DNA from: Candidatus Moraniibacteriota bacterium
GTDB lineage: Bacteria > Patescibacteriota > Minisyncoccia > Moranbacterales > UBA1568
Reading direction: 5' to 3'
Assembly: GCA_028688415.1 (NCBI GenBank)
Contig: JAQTYF010000001.1
Coordinates: forward strand, 144,627-208,626
Length of the DNA: 64,000 nucleotides
Below the pieces are notes generated by a model. It made no database searches. It was not told where the DNA came from and worked only from the letters and a program-made list of their open reading frames with translations. A program made the translations under genes and the position numbers. Below are positions 6,157 through 63,113 of the stretch, in pieces (the first letter of the stretch is position 1; the number at the start of each line of letters is the position of its first letter).

Positions 6157-6828
6157 TCAAGATTTTTGAATGATTTGAAGTATTTCGTGGAAGTTTCTGA
6201 AAAGACAGGATTTTTTTTTCCTGTCGCGTAATAGTGTGAAAAGTTTCTCTTTTGCAAAAACGGTTGAACAGTGGCGAGCTCCTTCAATATCAGAAATTCC
6301 GTCGCCTATATAGATTGTATCGTTAGGATGAATAGGGATTGTTTTGATAATATGCTTGATAATTTGTGGTTTGCAATTTGCACAGACATTATTATGAATA
6401 CAAGGATATAAATCAGAAGAATCAGATAGTGGTATAAATTTTATCATTTTTTCGGACATAAATTTTATATCATTTGCGTAGATAGAAGTGAAATATATCT
6501 TGTGAATTGTGAGGAATTGTTCGATGAGTGTATTTATTCCATCGCTTATAATAAAGAGAGGGATGCCCTTGTCTTTACAAAATTGCGAGAATTCGATAAA
6601 ACCATTTTCTAGATGCAATTTACCCGCAAGATCAAAAATATCCGTAGCGTTCATTCTAATATTAGAGAATTGTTTTATAAGGCATTCTCTACTACCGATA
6701 GTGCCAGATGACCACTGCAGTTCAATATTTTTCCAGGTGTTGTCCACGCTGAACTGATTCAGTATTAAGTCTGTACTGTCTTCTTTTGCTATTGTCCCGT
6801 CAAAATCACAGAATATAGAATGTAACAT
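6157..6828 (-). CDS. HAD-superfamily phosphatase (subfamily IB, MtnX/phosphoserine-phosphatase-like)
   Basis: N-terminal FCDFDGTI (DxDGT motif I); IGDGISD near C-terminus (motif IV GDGxxD). Confidence 0.65.
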   Translation of the reverse strand: MLHSIFCDFDGTIAKEDSTDLILNQFSVDNTWKNIELQWSSGTIGSRECLIKQFSNIRMNATDIFDLAGKLHLENGFIEFSQFCKDKGIPLFIISDGINTLIEQFLTIHKIYFTSIYANDIKFMSEKMIKFIPLSDSSDLYPCIHNNVCANCKPQIIKHIIKTIPIHPNDTIYIGDGISDIEGARHCSTVFAKEKLFTLLRDRKKKSCLFRNFHEILQIIQKS

Positions 6829-7019
6829 ATACTTGTATTATATCAAAACTGCCCTAAGAAATGAAATAATAATAATTTGTACTGTATGTTAGGATTGATA
6901 TGAGTTTTTATAGTGGCATATTCTAAGGGTTGTTATGGTTCCATAGTATTTTTTGCAAAAAATGGGGATTTGGGGTAGAATATGAGTGTAAGAAGTGCCT
7001 TTTTGAGGTATTTTTTGTA

Positions 7020-7048
7020 TTGACAAATAGTAAAAAAAGTGATATAGT
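7020..7048 (+). promoter_or_regulatory. sigma70-like promoter TTGACA-17-TATAGT upstream of hss
   Basis: TTGACA at 7020-7025, 17-nt spacer, TATAGT at 7043-7048; 30 nt upstream of the 7079 start. Confidence 0.35.
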
Positions 7049-7078
7049 ATAAAATAAATTTATTTTTCGATAAACACT

Positions 7079-8506
7079 ATGATGACACAAGATTTCAAGA
7101 AAGACGTTCGATTCGATAAGAAAATGCTCATAATCGGTGGTGGATTTATCGGACAAGGAGTCTTGCCTCTCATACTGAAACATATCGATATCAAGCCAGA
7201 GCAGATATCAATCATCACTGCTGACGAACGAGGCAAAGAAACAGCTGCCTATTACGGTATACCGTTTTCTATCAATCCGATTTCCAAAGAAAATTATCGA
7301 GAAGTACTTGATCCACTTCTCTCTCCTGGAGATTTCTTGCTCAATCTCTCATCTGATATAGAGAGTACGCTTATCGTGGATTTCTGTAGCGAACGAGGGA
7401 TACTCTATCTCGATACTTGTATCGACTCATGGCTTGGAGAAAGTACCAACCCAGCACTTTCTGTTTCACAGCGATCTCTCTACAAATTGCGAGAACAAGC
7501 TATCAAGCTCAAAGAGAAATGGGGGAATACAAATGCTACTTCGGTACTCGCTCACGGAGCCAATCCTGGTATTGTATCGCACCTCGTGAAACAAGCACTT
7601 CTCAATATTGCAAAAGATGAAGGAAGAGATGTAGTCATCCCACAAACGAGAGAAGAATGGGCACGCCTCTCCCAATCACTCGGGATCCGGGCTATCCATG
7701 TCGCAGAGCGTGATACGCAGATTCCTACAGAACGAAAAAAAGTAGGTGAATTCATCAATACCTGGTCTATCGATGGATTGGTCGGTGAAGGACTCCAGCC
7801 AGCAGAGCTCGGATGGGGATCGCATGAGAAACATCTCCCTGTCGATGGGAGTAGACACACGTTTGGTGATCAGTCTGCTATCTATTTGAACAAACCAGGA
7901 GCATCAGTACGTGTCCGCACCTGGCTCCCTCTCGCTGGTCCACAGATCGGATATCTCATCACACACAATGAAGCTATTTCCCTCGCGAGTTATCTGACTC
8001 TCGGAACAGGGGAGAATCCAGAATATCGTCCGACAGTACACTATGCTTATCACCCTTGTGATGATGCGGTACTTTCGATTACAGAACTCGAAGAATCCAA
8101 TTGGAAAATTCAGGAACAAAAACGATCGATCACTGATGAAATTGTTTCGGGTATAGATGAACTCGGTGTTCTCTTGATCGGGAACAAACAGGGTGTGTAC
8201 TGGTTCGGATCACGACTCGATATCCATACTGCACGACAGCTCGCGCCATACAATTCTGCGACATCACTGCAGGTAGCTGCCGGTGTCGTAGCGGGGATGA
8301 TATGGGCGATGCGTCATCCAGAGAGTGGGATAGTCGAAGCAGAAGAAATGGATTTCAGAGAAGTGCTCGATATTGCTAGTCCATACTGGGGAGAGCTCGT
8401 CGGCGAATACAGTGATTGGGATCCGACGATAGGACGGAACACCCTTTTTCCCGAAGATATCGATACAGAAGATCCCTGGCAGTTCAAGAATTTCCGCGTA
8501 GTATAG
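7079..8506 (+). CDS. hss: homospermidine synthase (saccharopine-dehydrogenase-like NAD enzyme)
   Basis: 475 aa; N-terminal Rossmann motif MLIIGGGFIGQGVLPLILKH and overall length/organisation match bacterial homospermidine synthase. GC (~50%) clearly above neighbours. Confidence 0.65.
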   Translation: MMTQDFKKDVRFDKKMLIIGGGFIGQGVLPLILKHIDIKPEQISIITADERGKETAAYYGIPFSINPISKENYREVLDPLLSPGDFLLNLSSDIESTLIVDFCSERGILYLDTCIDSWLGESTNPALSVSQRSLYKLREQAIKLKEKWGNTNATSVLAHGANPGIVSHLVKQALLNIAKDEGRDVVIPQTREEWARLSQSLGIRAIHVAERDTQIPTERKKVGEFINTWSIDGLVGEGLQPAELGWGSHEKHLPVDGSRHTFGDQSAIYLNKPGASVRVRTWLPLAGPQIGYLITHNEAISLASYLTLGTGENPEYRPTVHYAYHPCDDAVLSITELEESNWKIQEQKRSITDEIVSGIDELGVLLIGNKQGVYWFGSRLDIHTARQLAPYNSATSLQVAAGVVAGMIWAMRHPESGIVEAEEMDFREVLDIASPYWGELVGEYSDWDPTIGRNTLFPEDIDTEDPWQFKNFRVV

Positions 8507-8534
8507 GCATTTATTGAGAATTTATAGAAAAGAA
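8484..8534. repeat. 51-bp perfect direct repeat, copy 1 (covers last 7 codons and stop of hss)
   Basis: ttcaagaatttccgcgtagtataggcatttattgagaatttatagaaaaga is identical at 8484-8534 and 10502-10552. Confidence 0.9.
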
Positions 8535-8586
8535 AAAAGAAGCAATGACGTAGCAATACTTCTTTAATTTCTTAAGTCAGTAGATA

Positions 8587-8865
8587 CTAACTTGAATAAA
8601 TGTGGTTCTTTCTATTGAACCTCGATTCGCTTCCGCAGATACGAACAGACCCATAGTTACCCTTGTTGCGATAATTCATCATTGAATCTGTTATCTCTGG
8701 AAGTTGTATTTTGAAATCAGCACTAAACTGAGTTTCAGCATTTGGTGCCGAAAGCATCATATACAGATTTCTTTCTGCGTAGTGTAAAGGAACGATATTT
8801 CTCATCAGTATTCTCCTGGTTAATTCAGAATTTCGGAAGGATGGCAACTTTCTTATAGCATGCAA
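8587..8865 (-). CDS. hypothetical small protein (92 aa) inside repeat-flanked cassette
   Basis: ORF only; no motif. Confidence 0.2.
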   Translation of the reverse strand: MHAIRKLPSFRNSELTRRILMRNIVPLHYAERNLYMMLSAPNAETQFSADFKIQLPEITDSMMNYRNKGNYGSVRICGSESRFNRKNHIYSS

Positions 8866-8986
8866 TAGTTATTTTGTACAATAGCTAGTAGGGGTATTTG
8901 TAATATTTTCACAGATTGACGAAAAACCGTTCTTATGATATTGTTTTCTTGCCATTATATCAATGGTGTTTTTAGGAGAATATCTC

Positions 8987-9106
8987 ATGAAGCAAGGCCT
9001 TTTCGGTGGTTCTGGTGGTCACGGCAATGGAAATGGTGGCTCTGGTGGCCAACGTGGTGGCGGTGGCGGTAGCACCGGTGGCGGTTCCGGGACTCGTGGC
9101 AAATAA
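8987..9106 (+). CDS. glycine-rich small peptide (39 aa), MKQGLFGGSGGHGNGNGGSGGQRGGGGGSTGGGSGTRGK
   Basis: Not in the ORF track (<60 aa). AGGAGA RBS at 8974-8979, 7 nt before ATG 8987; TAA stop at 9104-9106; lies 55 nt upstream of the M16 peptidase gene. Confidence 0.35.
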   Translation: MKQGLFGGSGGHGNGNGGSGGQRGGGGGSTGGGSGTRGK

Positions 9107-9161
9107 GTTCATCTGCCAAATCGCGTAATCTGCCAGTATGGCCTCGATCATCATTGTGTGA

Positions 9162-10460
9162 TTGAGGCCATTTTATTTTTTCGATAAATACTCTATACTT
9201 CAAACTATGCAAGTATCTCATTTCGAAAATATACTCGAAGGGAAGGGAGGGAAGTTCCTTTCCATACACTGTCCACATCTGCAGGTGTCGATTGCTTCTG
9301 TATGGTTCGAAGCTGGTTCGATATATGATCCTTTGGGCAAAGAAGGATTGGCACATTTTTTCGAACATTTGCTCTTGCAGAAAACAAAAAAAGAGCCTTC
9401 TCGAACACAGAGACTCTATACTCTCGAATCTCGTGGAATAGATTTTTACGCCTACACGAACAAAGACTCAGCTTACTATTACCATATTCAAGAACCAGAG
9501 AAAACAAAAGAAAGCCTCGGATTACTCGCGCTTGGTATTGCAGACTTCGTTTTCGATGAAACCGATATCGAGAAAGAGAGAAATGTGATTCTTTCAGAGA
9601 AAGACACGTATGATGGAAATCGGGATGAGAAAGTGTGGGATTTTCTCTTCGATGGTTTGTATCATGGAAGTGTTTTTGCTCATAATCCGTTCGGAGATGC
9701 CCATTCGATTAGTTCTATTACGAAAGAAGATATAGAAAAATTTTATCGAGAATACTATAATCTCGAGAACGCTGTGTGGGTCATTCTCTCTCCGCAAGTA
9801 TCTGGTGCAGATGAGAAAATACATCTTGAGGAAACCTTACGTCCTTTTGTTGATGCAAGCGAGAAAGTGTCAATCGATCATGATGCGAGAGAAACAATGG
9901 GAAGTGTCCATGATCAGAGGATAGTTGCCTCATCAGAAGATACATCATTTCTCGTAGCTGAAGCATTTCGTACGACGGATATTTTTGATCAAGAAAATAT
10001 TCTTCGTATCGATCTTCTCCGTTCTATCATCGCCTCTGGGTGGATTTCTTGGGCAAATAAAATACTACGTACCGAGAAAAGTCTCATCTATTGGGCACGC
10101 AGTGTTTTCAGTCAATTTCATGATAGGGGATATGTAGCTTTCCTCTTTGATGTGCAAAATTCTTCCAAGACTGAAGCCATCACCCTCTTCGACAGATTGA
10201 TAGAAGATTCGAAGGATATCGAAAAAATGAGTGAACATCTGGATGCACACAAGAACGCTTTTGCAACACGATTTCTCCGCGTGTATCATAACCCAGAAGA
10301 TCTCTTGTGGTGGTATGGATACCCTGCTTTATTTGGTATTGTCAAAGAGTCTCCCAAAGAATATTTGCATCAACTGAAACAATTGAAAGCAGAAGAGCTC
10401 GTTTCTGTCGCAGAAAAAACTTTTACGAAGGAAAAGAGGAGTGTCATAGAGATTAGTTAG
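9162..10460 (+). CDS. M16-family zinc peptidase (pitrilysin/insulinase-like), active-type subunit
   Basis: HFFEH inverted zinc-binding motif (HxxEH) near the N-terminus, plus downstream glutamate-containing region typical of M16. Alternative start at 9207 (MQVSHF). Confidence 0.75.
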   Translation: MRPFYFFDKYSILQTMQVSHFENILEGKGGKFLSIHCPHLQVSIASVWFEAGSIYDPLGKEGLAHFFEHLLLQKTKKEPSRTQRLYTLESRGIDFYAYTNKDSAYYYHIQEPEKTKESLGLLALGIADFVFDETDIEKERNVILSEKDTYDGNRDEKVWDFLFDGLYHGSVFAHNPFGDAHSISSITKEDIEKFYREYYNLENAVWVILSPQVSGADEKIHLEETLRPFVDASEKVSIDHDARETMGSVHDQRIVASSEDTSFLVAEAFRTTDIFDQENILRIDLLRSIIASGWISWANKILRTEKSLIYWARSVFSQFHDRGYVAFLFDVQNSSKTEAITLFDRLIEDSKDIEKMSEHLDAHKNAFATRFLRVYHNPEDLLWWYGYPALFGIVKESPKEYLHQLKQLKAEELVSVAEKTFTKEKRSVIEIS

Positions 10461-10501
10461 TATGTATGGTATTTCTGTGACATATAATCATTACTATGAA
10501 T

Positions 10502-10552
10502 TTCAAGAATTTCCGCGTAGTATAGGCATTTATTGAGAATTTATAGAAAAGA
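10502..10552. repeat. 51-bp perfect direct repeat, copy 2
   Basis: Identical to 8484-8534. Confidence 0.9.
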
Positions 10553-10585
10553 GCCATTGACAAGGCTCTTTTTTTAGTGTATAAT
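10549..10585 (+). promoter_or_regulatory. terminator-like hairpin (agagcc-attgacaa-ggctct + T7) overlapping a TTGACA-17-TATAAT promoter
   Basis: TTGACA at 10557-10562 in the hairpin loop, 17-nt spacer, TATAAT at 10580-10585; upstream of the membrane protein gene. Confidence 0.4.
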
Positions 10586-10643
10586 ATAAATTTGATAGTC
10601 AAATGGGTTGATTATTGAAAGTTTTTTGAAAAAGGAGTCGCAA

Positions 10644-11249
10644 ATGAAAGTAATGAAGAAATTTGTCGCTTTCATGGCGACACATAAAGAGCAGATTGCT
10701 CTCATTGCTACCGGACAAGGTGTGATGAGCGTGATCAATTGGCTCTATGATAATCCTCTTTACATAGGGGTTATCGCGTATTTCGGACCAGTGGTAGGCG
10801 GGGCAATGATGACAGCGGGTTCGCTTGTCATTTGTCTCGGCCTTATCCTCTTCTATAATAAGAAGGGTGTAGACTGGCTTGGAGTAGGAGCACTTGACGC
10901 GGTGAAGGAGATTTCTCTGGAATACGCCAAGAAGCTCGTTGAATGGAGGTCAGATTCGATTTTTGGTAAGATAGCATACTTCGTATTCTATCTTCCGATT
11001 CAGCTGATTTTCATTCTTGCACATCTTGTGAATCACAAGGTGTGGGGTGGTGTAGTAGCATTTGTGTTACTTTCCATCTTCACAGACCCATTCGTGACGA
11101 CTGCCTATTCTCGTCACGGAAATTACGGCCCGATGAAGGTTCGTGATTGGGTGGTATTTTTCGGAAGTGTCGTGCTCAGCAATGGGTACTGGATATTCCG
11201 GACCACAGTGGTCATCGAGGTAGCGAAGGCCATTTGGAAGTTTGTTTGA
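10644..11249 (+). CDS. hypothetical integral membrane protein
   Basis: Several hydrophobic segments; AAAGGAG RBS 7 nt before ATG 10644. Confidence 0.5.
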   Translation: MKVMKKFVAFMATHKEQIALIATGQGVMSVINWLYDNPLYIGVIAYFGPVVGGAMMTAGSLVICLGLILFYNKKGVDWLGVGALDAVKEISLEYAKKLVEWRSDSIFGKIAYFVFYLPIQLIFILAHLVNHKVWGGVVAFVLLSIFTDPFVTTAYSRHGNYGPMKVRDWVVFFGSVVLSNGYWIFRTTVVIEVAKAIWKFV

Positions 11250-11328
11250 GTGGAGGGTGAAACATCATTGATGTATCACCCTTTCATTTCATTTTACGAA
11301 AAACTTATTTTTTGCTAAAATACTTTCT

Positions 11329-12072
11329 ATGAAAGATGTTTTGAATACGAAAATATACACGAATTTGGATGAAGCGAAAGCAGAAATTCAAAGACGTTGG
11401 AAGGACGAAGAATTGAAGAAAAAAGTCTTAGAATATCTCGGGGATATTCCAGAGTTTTTTTGTGATGAACCGAGAGCTATTCTTCATAGACATATTACTT
11501 CTCCAAATATTGAATTTCAACAATTTATTGATCATTCAAGAGATTTCGGACTGAAACCGCTCGGTTTGGAATATACCAATGATATTTTTTTGACGAGAAA
11601 TCATGACAAGCTTGGATTAGGGAAGTTACCCTTTATCTCGGATAACAAAAAAAATGTACATTACAGGAAGGTGATCGATCTGATGGGGTCAGAGAAAAAA
11701 AAGTTTGCAGATATTCAAACATTATGGGGTGAAAATCTCATTGATTTTCATCATAATTTATTGAGAAATGCTTCATTTGACATAGAAACAGCAGATCTTT
11801 CATATTGGTACGGTAGACATGGAGATAATGCTCTCAATCGATATGAAAAATTATTAGCTTTTTTCGTCGCACATGGTGTTTTGTTTGAAAATTTCATTAC
11901 AGACGAGAAAGAATTAGCATTTGCGGAAACAGTTGTTTGTCCAGCTATTGAAAAAATTACTTCTCTTTTCGGAGTAAAACCTCTTATTGTTCCAGTTTTT
12001 GCTCTCGATCAAGAAATGGAGGATTCTTGGTGGTGCTATGAGCAAGAAAAAGAATCTTTCATGAGTCATTAG
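11329..12072 (+). CDS. hypothetical protein (247 aa)
   Basis: ORF with coding composition; no motif recognised. Confidence 0.45.
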   Translation: MKDVLNTKIYTNLDEAKAEIQRRWKDEELKKKVLEYLGDIPEFFCDEPRAILHRHITSPNIEFQQFIDHSRDFGLKPLGLEYTNDIFLTRNHDKLGLGKLPFISDNKKNVHYRKVIDLMGSEKKKFADIQTLWGENLIDFHHNLLRNASFDIETADLSYWYGRHGDNALNRYEKLLAFFVAHGVLFENFITDEKELAFAETVVCPAIEKITSLFGVKPLIVPVFALDQEMEDSWWCYEQEKESFMSH

Positions 12073-12787: not shown

Positions 12788-14512
12788 ATGGATTTTAATA
12801 TAATTACGAACAGTGAGATTTGTATTGCGAATACACAACAATACTTAACAGGACTCGTCTATTATTCTCATTTTCCGATGATCATACTGTCTTTATTTTT
12901 TGGATTTTTTGTATTTTTAAAAAATAAAAGTTCGTTAGCGTCAAAATGTTTACTGGGTATTACGTTCTTCTTTTCTTTATGGCTTGTTTTTGATTTTATT
13001 TTGTGGAAAAGTAGCAATAGTAGTTTGCTTATGTTTTCTTGGGCTATACTAGGTGTATTTGAAGCACTCTTTTTCATTCTAGGTTTATATTTTATATATA
13101 CATTCATTGATAAAAAAGATGTTTCCAATAGTATAAAATTCATTTTTTTACTTCTTTCTTTGCCAGTTCTCTTTCTGACTCCAACGACATTTAACTTATC
13201 AAATTTTGATATCATAAATTGTGTTCCCGTTGAATCAGGGATATCTTTGGACTACGTTATTTCTTTGAAATTGATTATTTTATTGTGGATTTTTATTCTG
13301 TTGATAGTGAAATACCGGAAGCCTCCTGTAGACATATCAAGATTACAAATTTTTCTGTTAGGTTTAGGTATAATGTTGTTTCTATCTTCGTATTTTGTTT
13401 TGTCTTACGTTTCTGATTATTTGTACAATGCAGGTTATGAATGGGGGTATCAGGTTGAACAGGGTGGAATTCTCGCTATGGGTATTTTTCTTGGGTTTCT
13501 TAGTTATCTCATCGTTAAATTCAAGGCATTTGATATCAAACTGATCGGAGCACAAGCGTTGGTGTTAACACAATTTGCCCTTATTAGCTCAATGTTCTTT
13601 TTTGCCACGGTACTTATAAGTCGCGTCCTCATTGGAGTGACACTCTTTGGTACGACTATTGCTGGTTGGTATCTGATCCGATCAGTGAAGGCAGAAATCA
13701 AACGCAAGGAAGAGCTCGAAAAGATATCGCATACACTGATGGTGGCGAATGAACGATTGAAAGAGCTCGATGCCGCCAAATCAGAATTCATCTCTATTGC
13801 ATCACACCAGCTCCGTACACCGCTCACGGCTATCAAAGGTTACCTCTCACTCTTGCTCGAGGGCTCCTATGGGCCAGTCTCTCCTCAGGTACTCGATATT
13901 CTGAACAAACTCTACGGTGTGAACAATCGTCTCGTCCATCTCGTGGAGGATCTGCTCAATGTCTCTCGTATCGAAGCAGGGCGTATCCAATACAGTTTTG
14001 CTCCGACACAGATCGAGCCTATCCTCGTTGAACTCGTCGATATGTTCCTTTCTCCAGCTCAAGAAAAGAATCTGACTATTGATATCCATCTCTCCAAGCA
14101 TCCGCTCCCTCTCATCACGATGGATCCAAACAAAATCAAAGAAGTGGTGTCCAACCTCATCGACAATGCAGTGAAATACACCAAAGTAGGTGGTGTGACA
14201 GTCACACTCCAGAACACGCCTGAGGTCGCCCGTATCATCATCTCGGATACTGGTATCGGTATTCACGAAAGTGACAAGAAGAACCTCTTCCAGAAATTCC
14301 TTCGAAGCAAGGAAACAACGAAAATGGTAGTCTCTGGAGCGGGTCTCGGTCTCTACGTCGGCAAGAGTTTTATCGAAGCACACGGAGGCAAGATCTGGGC
14401 AGAATCCGATGGTCCAGATAGAGGCTCTCGCTTCATCATCGAACTCCCGATCAAAAACACTCATATTCAGATCGGTACGTCTGATGAACCTACTTCTGTC
14501 GAAAAAGAGTAA
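12788..14512 (+). CDS. membrane sensor histidine kinase (multi-TM N-terminus, HisKA + HATPase_c)
   Basis: H-box SHQLRTPLTAIKGYLSLL; N, G1 and G2 boxes (DNAVKYT, DTGIGI, GAGLGL). GC rises in the kinase-domain half. Confidence 0.85.
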   Translation: MDFNIITNSEICIANTQQYLTGLVYYSHFPMIILSLFFGFFVFLKNKSSLASKCLLGITFFFSLWLVFDFILWKSSNSSLLMFSWAILGVFEALFFILGLYFIYTFIDKKDVSNSIKFIFLLLSLPVLFLTPTTFNLSNFDIINCVPVESGISLDYVISLKLIILLWIFILLIVKYRKPPVDISRLQIFLLGLGIMLFLSSYFVLSYVSDYLYNAGYEWGYQVEQGGILAMGIFLGFLSYLIVKFKAFDIKLIGAQALVLTQFALISSMFFFATVLISRVLIGVTLFGTTIAGWYLIRSVKAEIKRKEELEKISHTLMVANERLKELDAAKSEFISIASHQLRTPLTAIKGYLSLLLEGSYGPVSPQVLDILNKLYGVNNRLVHLVEDLLNVSRIEAGRIQYSFAPTQIEPILVELVDMFLSPAQEKNLTIDIHLSKHPLPLITMDPNKIKEVVSNLIDNAVKYTKVGGVTVTLQNTPEVARIIISDTGIGIHESDKKNLFQKFLRSKETTKMVVSGAGLGLYVGKSFIEAHGGKIWAESDGPDRGSRFIIELPIKNTHIQIGTSDEPTSVEKE

Positions 14513-20010: not shown

Positions 20011-20180
20011 GCAAGAGTTTCATCGAAGCACACGGAGGCAAGATCTGGGCAGAATCCGATGGTCCAGACAAAGGATCGCGATTTATCATCGAACTCCCGA
20101 TCAAAAACACTCATATTCAGATCGGTACCTCTGATCAACTAGCAGAAGCGAATGGCAGAGAAGTTGAAAAAGAAAAGTAA
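20011..20180 (+). pseudogene. remnant of a histidine-kinase 3' end (last ~45 codons), homologous to 14361-14488
   Basis: 128 bp ~92% identical to the 3' end of the HK gene; encodes SFIEAHGGKIWAESDGPDKGSRFIIELPIKNTHIQIGTSD with no upstream ORF (stops in frame). Confidence 0.7.
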
Positions 20181-20259: not shown

Positions 20260-21090
20260 ATGCCAAAGATTCTTTTCGTCGAAGATGATCCATTTATTGC
20301 TGAAATTTATAAGAAAAAATTTGCGAGCTCTGGTTTTGATGTGCTCAATGTCATAACTGGGAAATCAGCACTCAAGGAAGCTCTCGAACAGAAATTCGAT
20401 TTGATATTGCTTGATCTCGTGATCCCAGAACTGAGCGGTACAGAAGTGCTTCGTGAATTACGTCACAATCCTGAATACGATCCGAATATGAAAATTGTTG
20501 TGTTCAGTAACCTGAGCTCACAAGAAGATCGTGATGAGTGTCTTGGTCTCGGTGCCAATGGATTTATCTCCAAGACAGAATTTTCTCCATCGGAAGTTGT
20601 CGTCGAAGTCAATCGCTTCCTGAGTCAATTCAGTGAACAGGCCAAGAATTCTGCTCGTTTCGAAAAACAAGGTACAGCAGAACATGAAGATGCTCCGGTA
20701 GTAGAGGGAAAAAAGATTCTCTTTGTTGAAGATGAGGCAGTGTTTATCGATATGTTTGGCAAGCGACTCCGAGATGAAGGATATGTCGTGACGACATGTC
20801 GTGACGGTGTCTCTGGACTACAGGCAGCACTTGATGGGACATTTGATCTCGTGATTTCAGATGTGATGATGCCAGGAATGGATGGTCGCGAACTCGTGAT
20901 GAAGTTGAAAGAAGCAGAATCAGAAAACAATACTCCGATATTTCTGTTCTCCGCATCACTCGACGATAGAGATGTTCAGGCACTTATTGATTCCAAGATT
21001 GCCGAGGGAGTATTTCTCAAGACACAAATCACTCCTAGTGAACTCACTTATGCCGTCAATGATTTTTTCAAGGAGCAATCAGAGAAATAA
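20260..21090 (+). CDS. response regulator with tandem receiver domains (REC-REC), no output domain
   Basis: Two CheY-like modules (ILFVEDD...LILLDLVIP and ILFVEDE...LVISDVMMPGMDG) with conserved Asp/Lys positions. Confidence 0.8.
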   Translation: MPKILFVEDDPFIAEIYKKKFASSGFDVLNVITGKSALKEALEQKFDLILLDLVIPELSGTEVLRELRHNPEYDPNMKIVVFSNLSSQEDRDECLGLGANGFISKTEFSPSEVVVEVNRFLSQFSEQAKNSARFEKQGTAEHEDAPVVEGKKILFVEDEAVFIDMFGKRLRDEGYVVTTCRDGVSGLQAALDGTFDLVISDVMMPGMDGRELVMKLKEAESENNTPIFLFSASLDDRDVQALIDSKIAEGVFLKTQITPSELTYAVNDFFKEQSEK

Positions 21091-62585: not shown

Positions 62586-62617
62586 AATTTCAAATTTTGA
62601 AATATATCGACAAAAAG

Positions 62618-62653
62618 AAAAAAGCCCGACGAATGTTATCGTGCGGGCTTTCT
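62618..62653. terminator. bidirectional terminator hairpin (copy 1 of a repeated terminator element)
   Basis: A-run, agcccgac-gaatgttatc-gtgcgggct, T-rich; sits between convergent genes. Confidence 0.55.
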
Positions 62654-62975: not shown

Positions 62976-63077
62976 GATGTTTACCTCAGTTGTTAAAGAT
63001 ACTCAAAGAGTATAAGATATAGAATTTTTGGTCAAGAATCAGTGATCTTCTTCGTATATTGCATTGAAAGGAAAGAA

Positions 63078-63113
63078 AAAGCCCAGACGAATGTTATCGT
63101 GTGGGCTTTTTTT
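63078..63113. terminator. terminator hairpin (copy 2; ~90% identical to 62618-62653)
   Basis: aaaaagcccagacgaatgttatcgtgtgggcttttttt. Confidence 0.55.

What the first reader, a model, noticed from the sequence alone, without database searches (positions are those of the whole stretch)
8484..10552. 2-kb cassette inserted at the 3' end of hss, flanked by perfect 51-bp direct repeats
An identical 51-nt sequence, which includes the last 7 codons and stop of hss, occurs at 8484-8534 and 10502-10552. The segment between the copies carries a small ORF, a Gly-rich peptide gene and an M16 peptidase. The second copy is followed immediately by a terminator/promoter that would fit directly after hss. This is the signature of an integration that duplicated the target's 3' end, as att-site integration does, or of a recent recombination. 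Perfect identity argues that the event is recent.
Basis: seen in the sequence. Interest (0 to 1): 0.7.

Follow-up and report, generated by a model that had tools for sequence, protein, structure and literature searches.

The report
Peptide-peptidase cassette inserted behind hss
A 2-kb block of three small genes really was inserted just behind the homospermidine synthase gene of an uncultured Moranbacteria genome, copying 51 bases of the target. It looks like an old recombination accident rather than an active mobile element, and its cargo, an extremely conserved glycine-rich peptide with its own protease, is the more interesting part.

Summary
The repeat is real: an exact 51-mer at 8483-8533 and 10502-10552 (left copy off by one), unique in the window. 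It brackets 1,968 nt carrying an orphan 72-aa gene (minus strand), a 39-aa Gly-rich peptide gene and an M16B peptidase gene.

Five related contigs (hss 74-87% identical) have hss followed directly by the 10553+ terminator/promoter and the same downstream genes. These are empty sites, so the cassette is a derived insertion and the repeat is native target sequence.

The same three-gene unit lies between unrelated genes in another relative (L177), so it has moved as a block.

I found no integrase or transposase in 64 kb, no terminal inverted repeats and no phage match. The left junction lies in a 6-nt microhomology between two terminator A-tracts.

The event is not recent. A second strain (dS about 0.11-0.14) has the same insertion. 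The window's two derived substitutions occur in both repeat copies, which indicates gene conversion.

Best reading: a one-off recombinational insertion with target duplication, later homogenised.

The peptide (dN/dS 0.04; 95% identical where the peptidase is 47%) plus the M16 peptidase is an undescribed conserved pair in Patescibacteria.

The parts
7079..8506 (+). hss (homospermidine synthase-like, saccharopine dehydrogenase family). This is the target gene, and it stays intact after the insertion.
   Evidence: Pfam Sacchrp_dh_NADP and Sacchrp_dh_C. Homologues at 55-75% identity are named homospermidine synthase by JGI/NCBI.
8483..8533 (+). Left copy of the 51-nt direct repeat: the last 7 codons of hss, the stop codon and 27 nt of native 3' spacer.
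   Evidence: It aligns with the single copy in the empty-site relatives.
8534..10501 (.). Inserted cassette, 1,968 nt. It is absent from five related hss loci.
   Evidence: It is collinear at 80.6% nt identity with L177 206-2097 (window 8521-10463), which lies in an unrelated context.
8536..8565 (-). Hairpin at the left end of the cassette. With the U-tract that spans the repeat/cassette junction, it forms the intrinsic terminator of the orphan gene. On the plus strand it now follows hss.
   Evidence: Fold z = -3.4 on the minus strand. Conserved in L177.
8587..8805 (-). Orphan 72-aa gene, fast-evolving but coding.
   Evidence: The only real match in 1.84 billion representative proteins is itself; the second hit is a spurious repeat protein. 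A 70-aa open counterpart exists in L177, at 39% aa identity and dN/dS 0.29. The AF2 model is uninformative, pLDDT 49.
8916..8944 (+). Promoter-like site of the peptide gene (TTGACG-17-TATTGT with a preceding TG).
   Evidence: The block is conserved in L177.
8987..9106 (+). Gly-rich peptide gene: MKQGLFGGSGGHGNGNGGSGGQRGGGGGSTGGGSGTRGK, with an AGGAGA ribosome-binding site 8 nt upstream.
   Evidence: Family members. dN/dS 0.04 against L177; 95% aa identity to L009, where synonymous sites are saturated.
9138..9171 (+). Strong intrinsic terminator after the peptide gene (14-bp stem followed by a T-run).
   Evidence: Fold -22.8 kcal/mol, z = -4.1.
9207..10460 (+). M16B (insulinase-family) zinc peptidase, 417 aa, with the HFFEH active-site motif present.
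   Evidence: Pfam. Best solved relatives are MPP-beta and bacterial M16B proteases. Homologues.
10461..10501 (+). 41-nt tail of the cassette, of unknown origin. It matches nothing except the sister strain.
10502..10552 (+). Right copy of the 51-nt repeat. It is not part of any long gene, and its last 8 nt are the start of the left arm of the native hss terminator.
10545..10585 (+). Native hss terminator hairpin (10545-10574 plus a T-run), overlapping the consensus promoter TTGACA-17-TATAAT (10557-10585) of the downstream gene.
   Evidence: Conserved directly after hss in L015, L098 and L100.
10644..11249 (+). 201-aa membrane protein, the first gene of the conserved downstream block (201 aa, 247 aa, SET, histidine kinase).
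   Evidence: 82% aa identity by tblastx to L097, L098 and L100, immediately after hss.

Best explanation
A pre-existing three-gene unit (orphan small protein, Gly-rich peptide, dedicated M16B peptidase) occurs as a block elsewhere in related Moranbacteria. It was inserted once, in the common ancestor of the window strain and a sister strain, between the 3' spacer of hss and the hss terminator.

The insertion re-copied 48-51 bp of target: the last 7 codons of hss, the stop codon and the spacer. As a result hss, its downstream promoter and the neighbouring operon all stayed intact.

The joining was most likely done by the cell's general recombination and replication machinery, not by a dedicated integrase. 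The candidates are microhomology-mediated template switching and homology-facilitated illegitimate recombination with DNA from a relative. The left junction lies in a 6-nt microhomology (AAAAGA) between the A-tracts of two intrinsic terminators.

Since then the two copies have been kept identical by gene conversion, running from the selected hss copy to the idle copy. Recombination between the repeats can also delete the cassette cleanly.

Shown: the insertion, the target duplication, the empty sites, the shared ancestry with the sister strain, the co-variation of the copies, and the absence of a recombinase in 64 kb.

Inferred: the joining mechanism, and gene conversion as the homogenising process.

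Cargo function (inferred, low confidence): the peptide is made from its own promoter and is cleaved or matured by the adjacent M16 peptidase, as in a minimal bacteriocin- or RiPP-like module.
For: Repeat and chance:
- The repeat is exact and unique in the window.

Empty sites:
- L015, L097, L098, L100 and L101 have a collinear hss, terminator/promoter, 201-aa, 247-aa, SET, kinase order.
- Deleting one repeat plus the cassette from the window reproduces that consensus exactly.

The cassette as a unit:
- The whole cassette is present at 80.6% nt identity between unrelated genes in L177.
- In L013 the module sits right after the kinase gene.

No dedicated machinery:
- No recombinase or transposase Pfam hit in about 50 ORFs of the window.
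- No terminal inverted repeats.
- No match to viral contigs, PHROGs or PADLOC.
- Microhomology AAAAGA (11/15 over the wider stretch) between the target and the left flank of the L177 cassette.

Age and homogenisation:
- In the sister strain, the unitigs L096 (hss) and L012 (cassette) end in the same 30-mer, which carries GTAATGTAG.
- The window has GTAGTATAG in both copies.
- The outgroups L098, L099 and L100 have GTGATGTAG.
- hss dS is 0.113 and M16 dS is 0.143 between the strains, which fits co-divergence after a single insertion.

A comparable event nearby:
- A second, imperfect (93%) 129-nt duplication of a gene 3' end flanks a 5.65-kb block in the same window. Such by-products of recombination therefore recur here.
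Against: - Only 64 kb of a genome of about 1 Mb was searchable, so a trans-acting integrase elsewhere is not excluded.
- A 51-bp target duplication is long for illegitimate recombination.
- In L099 the hss locus diverges within 2 nt of the same breakpoint. In L013 the module again sits at a gene's 3' end. Both hint at site preference.
- The donor sequence for the right junction is unknown, so microhomology could be assessed on one side only.
- Gene conversion over 51 bp is inferred, not observed.
- Only the first 30 nt of each copy are visible in the sister strain.
Confidence: 0.6

Rival explanations
1. Site-specific (att-type) integration of a small cassette that is mobilised in trans. An integrase encoded elsewhere in the genome, or on a helper element, recognises the hss 3' end as attB. 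The 51-mer is the attL/attR core, as in cis-mobilisable elements left by integrative elements that target the 3' ends of genes.
For: - The direct repeats contain the 3' end of the target gene and restore it.
- Precise empty sites exist.
- L099 diverges within 2 nt of the same point.
- The module lies next to another gene's 3' end in L013.
- The repeat copies co-vary between strains, as repeated excision and re-integration could produce.
- L177 has a 25/28 direct repeat at its cassette boundaries.
Against: - No recombinase in the cassette or in 64 kb.
- No phage or viral match to the repeat or the peptidase.
- The L177 copy is not flanked by the hss-derived sequence, and its own repeat is unrelated to the 51-mer.
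- The repeat has no internal dyad symmetry or fold (z = +0.6).
- Cassette and hss divergence between the strains is similar, as expected for vertical inheritance.
Confidence: 0.2
2. Assembly or population artefact. The chromosome is really empty (hss, one repeat, downstream genes) and the cassette is a separate 2,019-bp circle or a segment from another locus. The assembler threaded it through the shared 51-mer.
For: At k = 31 the de Bruijn graph is identical for the 'integrated' state and for 'circle plus empty site'. The Logan unitigs break exactly at the repeat, so they cannot distinguish the two.
Against: - A 51-bp repeat is shorter than the usual final k-mers and than the reads, so the MAG assemblers had spanning evidence.
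- Two NCBI contigs (219 kb and 939 kb) carry the same neighbours.
- The cassette has no replication gene, so a free circle could only be an excision product of an integrated copy.
- Both cassette ends abut repeat sequence in two runs and two strains.
Confidence: 0.05
3. An ancient functional duplication: the 51-mer is a regulatory or RNA element needed at both positions and conserved by selection.
For: The copies are identical although the insertion predates a strain split.
Against: - Close relatives have a single copy.
- No stable fold and no Rfam match.
- The two strains differ in the repeat sequence, which selection for a fixed motif would not predict.
Confidence: 0.03

Closest known systems
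Integrative elements and their integrase-less derivatives (cis-mobilisable elements) that insert in the 3' end of a protein-coding or tRNA gene, for example the ICESt1/ICESt3 family in fda (from my own knowledge)
   Same: Direct repeats that include the 3' end of the target gene. The gene remains intact. Precise empty sites exist in relatives. The cargo has its own promoters.
   Different: No integrase in the element or within 64 kb. Only 2 kb long. The repeat boundaries coincide with microhomology. The same cassette elsewhere (L177) lacks this repeat. The repeat has no recognisable core or arm structure.
Illegitimate recombination: homology-facilitated illegitimate recombination during natural transformation, and microhomology-mediated template switching (from my own knowledge; papers holding the term were found but not read)
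   Same: No dedicated enzyme is needed. Junctions lie at 3-8 nt microhomologies. Duplication of the stretch between the two switch points or anchor ends is expected. A second, imperfect duplication of a gene 3' end lies nearby.
   Different: A 51-bp duplication flanking a clean three-gene unit is unusually tidy. The donor configuration for the right junction is unknown.
Integron gene cassettes
   Same: A small cassette without a recombinase, inserted between genes.
   Different: No attC-like imperfect palindrome at the cassette end, and no IntI or attI in the window. The cassette has its own promoters, and the repeats are target-derived.
Precursor peptide plus dedicated M16 peptidase pairs in peptide natural-product pathways. 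Examples are PttP1/PttP2 for class III lanthipeptides (PMC10885120), and PqqF and AlbE/AlbF (from my own knowledge).
   Same: A small peptide gene next to an M16-family zinc peptidase. A strong terminator after the peptide gene, as in many bacteriocin operons.
   Different: No modifying enzyme, transporter or second M16 subunit is conserved next to the pair in any of the four contexts seen. The whole peptide, not only a leader, is almost invariant. There are no Cys residues.
Microcin B17 precursor McbA (Gly/Ser-rich core, leader removed by TldD/TldE; from my own knowledge)
   Same: A strongly Gly-rich core with interspersed Ser, Gln and Asn. Associated with a metalloprotease.
   Different: No McbBCD-type cyclodehydratase or dehydrogenase nearby. 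A different protease family. Only about 6 residues precede the conserved core.

Membership tests
Att-type integrative element (including integrase-less cis-mobilisable derivatives) | A tyrosine or serine recombinase encoded in the element or demonstrably available in the genome | tested here: not met
   No Phage_integrase, Resolvase, Recombinase or transposase family in any ORF of at least 120 aa in the 64-kb window. The rest of the genome could not be searched.
Att-type integrative element (including integrase-less cis-mobilisable derivatives) | Direct repeats (attL/attR) derived from the target, with an empty attB in relatives | tested here: met
   Exact 51-nt repeats. Five empty sites.
Att-type integrative element (including integrase-less cis-mobilisable derivatives) | The same att core accompanies the element wherever it is found (attP identity) | tested here: not met
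   The L177 copy of the cassette is flanked by unrelated sequence, and the hss-derived 51-mer is absent. No match in viral contigs.
Transposon or insertion sequence | A transposase, terminal inverted repeats and a short (2-15 bp) target-site duplication | tested here: not met
   No transposase. No inverted repeat pairing the cassette ends. The duplication is 51 bp.
Integron cassette | An attC recombination site at the cassette's 3' end, and IntI/attI upstream | tested here: not met
   No imperfect palindrome in 10461-10501. No integrase upstream.
Peptidase family M16 (subfamily B-like, about 420 aa) | An M16 active domain with the HxxEH zinc motif, plus the inactive M16_C domain | tested here: met
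   PF00675 at 3.7e-21 and PF05193 at 3.4e-10. HFFEH is read directly in the translation. PDB relatives are MPP-beta and bacterial M16B.
RiPP biosynthetic gene cluster | A precursor peptide plus at least one conserved post-translational modification enzyme | tested here: not met
   Only the peptidase is shared among the contexts of L004, L005, L009, L013, L177 and the window. A modification enzyme encoded elsewhere cannot be excluded.
RiPP or bacteriocin-type precursor with a dedicated protease | The protease cleaves the adjacent peptide | not testable with these tools
   Adjacency was seen in 6 of 7 lineages examined. There are no biochemical data.
Homospermidine synthase (bacterial HSS) | Saccharopine-dehydrogenase fold and orthology to named HSS | tested here: met
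   Pfam. 55-75% identity to proteins named homospermidine synthase by JGI/NCBI. Activity was not tested.

The most novel reading that the evidence does not exclude
Patescibacteria possess a cassette-insertion process that is integrase-independent or mobilised in trans. It repeatedly targets the junction between a gene's 3' end and its terminator, and re-copies tens of bases of the target so that the host gene survives.

The hss cassette, the 129-nt kinase 3'-end duplication, the L099 breakpoint and the L013 placement would all be traces of this process.

Its cargo would be a new effector system: an almost invariant Gly-rich peptide matured by a private M16 peptidase, accompanied by a fast-evolving small partner protein. 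It could be used in the episymbiotic lifestyle.
Probability: 0.12. Interest if true: 0.8.

Novelty: new variant of a known kind. Interest (0 to 1): 0.45.

Why it matters
The structural event is a clean, polarised natural example of how small streamlined CPR genomes gain an operon without damaging neighbours. The target's 3' end is duplicated, the terminators are re-used, and the short repeats are then homogenised. It also warns that perfect repeat identity is not a clock.

The cargo matters more. A 39-aa Gly-rich peptide is kept nearly invariant across Patescibacteria whose adjacent M16 peptidase has diverged to 47% identity. It is absent from Pfam, NCBIfam, PHROGs and PADLOC, and I did not find it in the literature searched. 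It is usually not even called as a gene. That makes it a concrete, testable candidate for a secreted or processed peptide in organisms whose interaction biology is largely unknown.

Tried and rejected
- Phage or plasmid origin. An exact-pattern scan of viral contigs with the repeat core (both strain variants) found nothing. A peptidase-based scan of viral contigs found no relative. PHROGs and PADLOC gave nothing for any cassette or flanking protein.
- RNA element. An Rfam E-value scan of 6800-11400 gave only one chance-level hit. The 51-mer does not fold (z = +0.6).
- Orphan ORF as a fragment of a larger gene. The only non-self hit (P0203, 884 aa) is a translated tandem repeat, so the hit is spurious. 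The single-sequence AF2 model was uninformative, pLDDT 49, so I did no fold search.
- Direct repeats around the module in distant relatives (L004, L005, L007, L009). None of 20 nt or more. None of note in L013 or L014.
- NCBIfam naming of the peptidase. Only sub-threshold hits (YfmH-like 48 bits against a 250 cut-off; PqqF 34 against 320), so no equivalog assignment.
- Literature. I found no paper that links a Gly-rich peptide with an M16 peptidase in CPR/Patescibacteria.
- The left junction in the sister strain could not be recovered. The orphan protein look-up returned only the window's own unitig.
- The first peptide homology search failed because the 39-aa query was below the 40-aa minimum. 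I repeated it with the 47-aa ORF.
Full report
OBSERVATION.
The window contains an exact 51-nt direct repeat at 8483-8533 and 10502-10552, with a spacing of 2019 nt. Identity ends abruptly on both sides. With up to three mismatches there are just these two copies in 64 kb, and none in 100 shuffles.

The left copy is the end of hss: codons FKNFRVV, the stop codon and 27 nt of spacer. Between the copies lie 1,968 nt holding three genes:
- a 72-aa ORF on the minus strand (8587-8805);
- a 39-aa Gly-rich peptide gene (8987-9106, AGGAGA ribosome-binding site);
- a 417-aa M16 peptidase gene (9207-10460).

ORGANISM AND REALITY OF THE ARRANGEMENT.
The window is part of contig JAQVTP010000002.1 of a Candidatus Moranbacteria MAG, GCA_028699965.1. 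A second NCBI contig of 939 kb carries hss and the peptidase with the same neighbours.

Logan unitigs of run SRR22315507 cover window 6951-8512 and 8504-10531. They break exactly k-1 = 30 nt into the repeat from both sides. Both cassette ends therefore abut repeat sequence in raw-read graphs.

A k = 31 graph cannot separate 'integrated' from 'circle plus empty site'. Still, a 51-bp repeat is shorter than the reads, and the cassette has no replication gene, so an integrated copy must exist.

EMPTY SITES.
Five related loci have hss followed directly by the homologue of window 10553 onward:
- L015, a Moraniibacteriota MAG, hss 84% identical (aa);
- L097 (87%);
- L098 and L100 (83%);
- L101 (74%, from a 61% GC contig).

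In each, the terminator, the promoter TTGACA-17-TATAAT, the 201-aa membrane protein, the 247-aa protein, the SET-domain protein and the histidine kinase follow in the same order. Removing one repeat plus the cassette from the window gives a sequence collinear with L098 and L100 base for base.

The whole 51-mer is therefore native target sequence. The cassette is a derived insertion, and its right edge lies 8 nt into the left arm of the hss terminator stem, which spans 10545-10574.

THE CASSETTE IS A UNIT THAT HAS MOVED.
L177 (run SRR22387962) carries the orphan ORF (70 aa, still open), the peptide gene and the peptidase (88% aa). It is collinear with window 8521-10463 at 80.6% nt identity, but lies between unrelated genes and has no hss.

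In L013 (peptidase 76% identical) the peptidase follows the stop of the histidine-kinase gene, and the peptide gene lies downstream in inverted orientation. More distant relatives (L004, L005-L008, L009-L011) have the peptide-peptidase pair in yet other contexts.

JUNCTIONS.
The unambiguous cassette homology with L177 starts at 8534. The bases before it in L177 (TTTTTTAAAAAAGA) resemble the end of the repeat (AATTTATAGAAAAGA): a perfect 6-nt AAAAGA, and 11/15 overall.

This stretch is the A-tract that, read on the minus strand, is the U-tract of the orphan gene's terminator hairpin at 8536-8565 (z = -3.4). The left junction thus joins the A-tracts of two intrinsic terminators.

On the right, homology with L177 ends at the peptidase stop codon. 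The next 41 nt (10461-10501) match nothing but the sister strain, so the donor side of that junction is unknown. Only a possible 3-nt overlap (TTC) is visible there.

After the insertion:
- hss is followed by the cassette's hairpin;
- the peptidase gene uses the native hss terminator;
- the downstream promoter is untouched.

NO DEDICATED MACHINERY FOUND.
About 50 ORFs across the window gave ordinary housekeeping families and no integrase, resolvase or transposase. No inverted repeats pair the cassette ends. Viral contigs, PHROGs and PADLOC gave nothing, and neither did Rfam.

AGE AND CONCERTED EVOLUTION.
Run SRR22315509 holds a sister strain. Its hss unitig L096 and cassette unitig L012 are about 96.5% identical to the window. 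Between the strains, hss has dS 0.113 and the peptidase dS 0.143. Both unitigs end in the same 30-mer, AAGAATTTCCGCGTAATGTAGGCATTTATT. The sister strain therefore has the same insertion at the same junction.

Its two copies both read GTAATGTAG, whereas both window copies read GTAGTATAG. The outgroups L098, L099 and L100 read GTGATGTAG, so the window state is derived, and it is present in both copies.

Two parallel identical double substitutions are very unlikely. Copying between the repeats (gene conversion, or re-duplication) explains them. It also explains why the sister strain's right copy starts 3 nt later (TCT instead of TTC). Perfect identity is therefore not evidence of recency.

CARGO.
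The peptide belongs to a small family with the core GGSGGHGxGNGGSGGQ[R/S]GGGGGSTGGG[S/T]GTRGK at the C-terminus. It was found only in Patescibacteria-type contigs and is mostly uncalled as a gene.

It is under very strong purifying selection:
- dN/dS is 0.04 against L177;
- it is 95% identical to L009, where the neighbouring peptidase is 47% identical and synonymous sites are saturated.

It has its own promoter-like site (8916-8944) and a strong terminator at 9138-9171 (z = -4.1).

The peptidase has both M16 domains and the HFFEH motif, with dN/dS 0.10-0.14. The orphan ORF has no homologue in 1.84 billion representative proteins, but it stays open in L177 with dN/dS 0.29.

No modifying enzyme or transporter is conserved next to the pair. 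The most economical reading is a peptide made in excess and cleaved or matured by its private peptidase. This is an inference from adjacency only.

MECHANISM AND RIVALS.
I favour a single recombinase-independent insertion (0.6). There are two routes:
- A replication template switch. The copying strand leaves the chromosome at the AAAAGA microhomology, copies the cassette from donor DNA, and returns 51 nt upstream of where it left.
- Homology-facilitated illegitimate recombination with DNA of a relative in which the cassette already abutted hss.

Either route would be followed by gene conversion between the copies.

The same window holds a 129-nt, 93%-identical duplication of the histidine-kinase 3' end. 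It flanks a 5.65-kb block, which shows that such by-products recur in this lineage.

The main rival (0.2) is att-type integration by an integrase encoded outside the 64 kb. In its favour:
- L099 diverges within 2 nt of the same breakpoint;
- in L013 the module again follows a gene's 3' end;
- a 25/28 repeat lies at the L177 boundaries.

An assembly artefact (0.05) and a functional duplicated motif (0.03) are poorly supported.

COMPARISON WITH WHAT IS KNOWN.
The structure works like an integrated element in the 3' end of a gene. It fails two defining tests for that family: no recombinase, and no constant att core. It also fails the tests for transposons and for integron cassettes.

The cargo resembles precursor-plus-M16-protease pairs of peptide natural products (PMC10885120), but it lacks a modification enzyme. 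I therefore rate it a new variant of known kinds. The insertion itself is fairly ordinary. The peptide-peptidase pair appears to be undescribed.

LIMITS.
- Only 64 kb of the genome was available.
- Only 30 nt of each repeat copy are visible in the sister strain.
- The contigs for L177, L013 and L099 are short.
- No read-level data were available.

Noticed in passing
window 14361-14489 and 20011-20139: A second duplication of a gene 3' end: a 129-nt direct repeat, 93% identical.
- Copy 1 is inside the 3' end of the histidine-kinase gene (12788-14512).
- Copy 2 is a pseudo-fragment 120 nt upstream of the response-regulator gene (20260-21090).
- The two copies flank a 5.65-kb block: a 675-aa ORF, a radical SAM gene, a NUDIX gene and a Gln/Glu-tRNA synthetase gene.
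- The native kinase tail (EPTSVEKE*) follows copy 1, so the topology differs from the hss case.
- L015 has only 1.5 kb between the kinase and the regulator.
   Followed up: partly
L099 4750-4823: In this hss relative (82% identical) the sequence after hss matches the empty-site consensus up to ...CTCTGAAAAA and then diverges completely. The divergence point is within 2 nt of the window's repeat/cassette breakpoint. Only 66 nt are available before the contig ends. It could be a second independent event at the same spot, or a contig-end chimera.
   Followed up: partly
L177 201-228 and 2049-2076: A 28-nt imperfect direct repeat (25/28). One copy lies at the left boundary of the cassette and the other inside the 3' end of its peptidase gene. 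It is rare against random zone pairs of the same contig (about 1%). Its meaning is unknown.
   Followed up: partly
L004 3850-3975; L005 7294-7385: In two distant lineages the Gly-rich peptide frame is offset by -1 from its ATG.
- In L004 the shift would occur at ATG CAA AAG|G, and would give MQK-GLFGG....
- In L005 it would occur after MEKGLFGGSG.
- The L005 form recurs in four contigs from different runs.
This could be recoding, pseudogenes or homopolymer errors. It is unresolved.
   Followed up: partly
window about 6886-7000, compared with L096, L015 and L099: The sister strain (L096) and L015 share an upstream context of hss (glycosyltransferases and a 203-aa protein) that is absent from the whole window. 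The window instead has a HAD phosphatase, a 441-aa protein, an aminotransferase, a pyrophosphatase and an APH kinase. The breakpoint is just upstream of the hss promoter. Window 6886-6922 matches L099 1345-1381 (92%), which lies 1.8 kb further from hss there.
   Followed up: partly
window 7079-8506 and 10600-11250; L016, L017, L101: hss has 45-49% GC against about 32% in its flanks, and is 73% identical to Sideroxydans hss. This suggests horizontal exchange with Proteobacteria. A 61% GC contig (L101) keeps the same order of hss, 201-aa, 247-aa and SET genes, so the block may be a functional unit.
   Followed up: no
window 10586-10615; L015 7470-7500; L098; L100: The leader after the consensus promoter contains a conserved palindrome, GATAGTCAAATGGGTTGA(C/T)TAT. 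It is kept in L015 even though the gene that follows there (212 aa) is not homologous to the window's 201-aa protein. It may be an operator or an RNA hairpin.
   Followed up: no
window 10497-10526: The right repeat copy is preceded by an in-frame ATG. This creates a 9-codon mini-ORF (MNFKNFRVV*) that copies the hss C-terminus. The ORF is preserved in the sister strain as MNSKNFRVM*. It is probably incidental.
   Followed up: no
window 7063-7078 and 9177-9192: A 16-nt near-identical motif (TTTTTCGATAAAYACT, 15/16) lies just upstream of the start codons of hss and of the M16 peptidase gene.
   Followed up: no
window 62614-62651 and 63072-63109: A 38-nt terminator-like hairpin is repeated 458 nt apart at 89% identity.
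   Followed up: no
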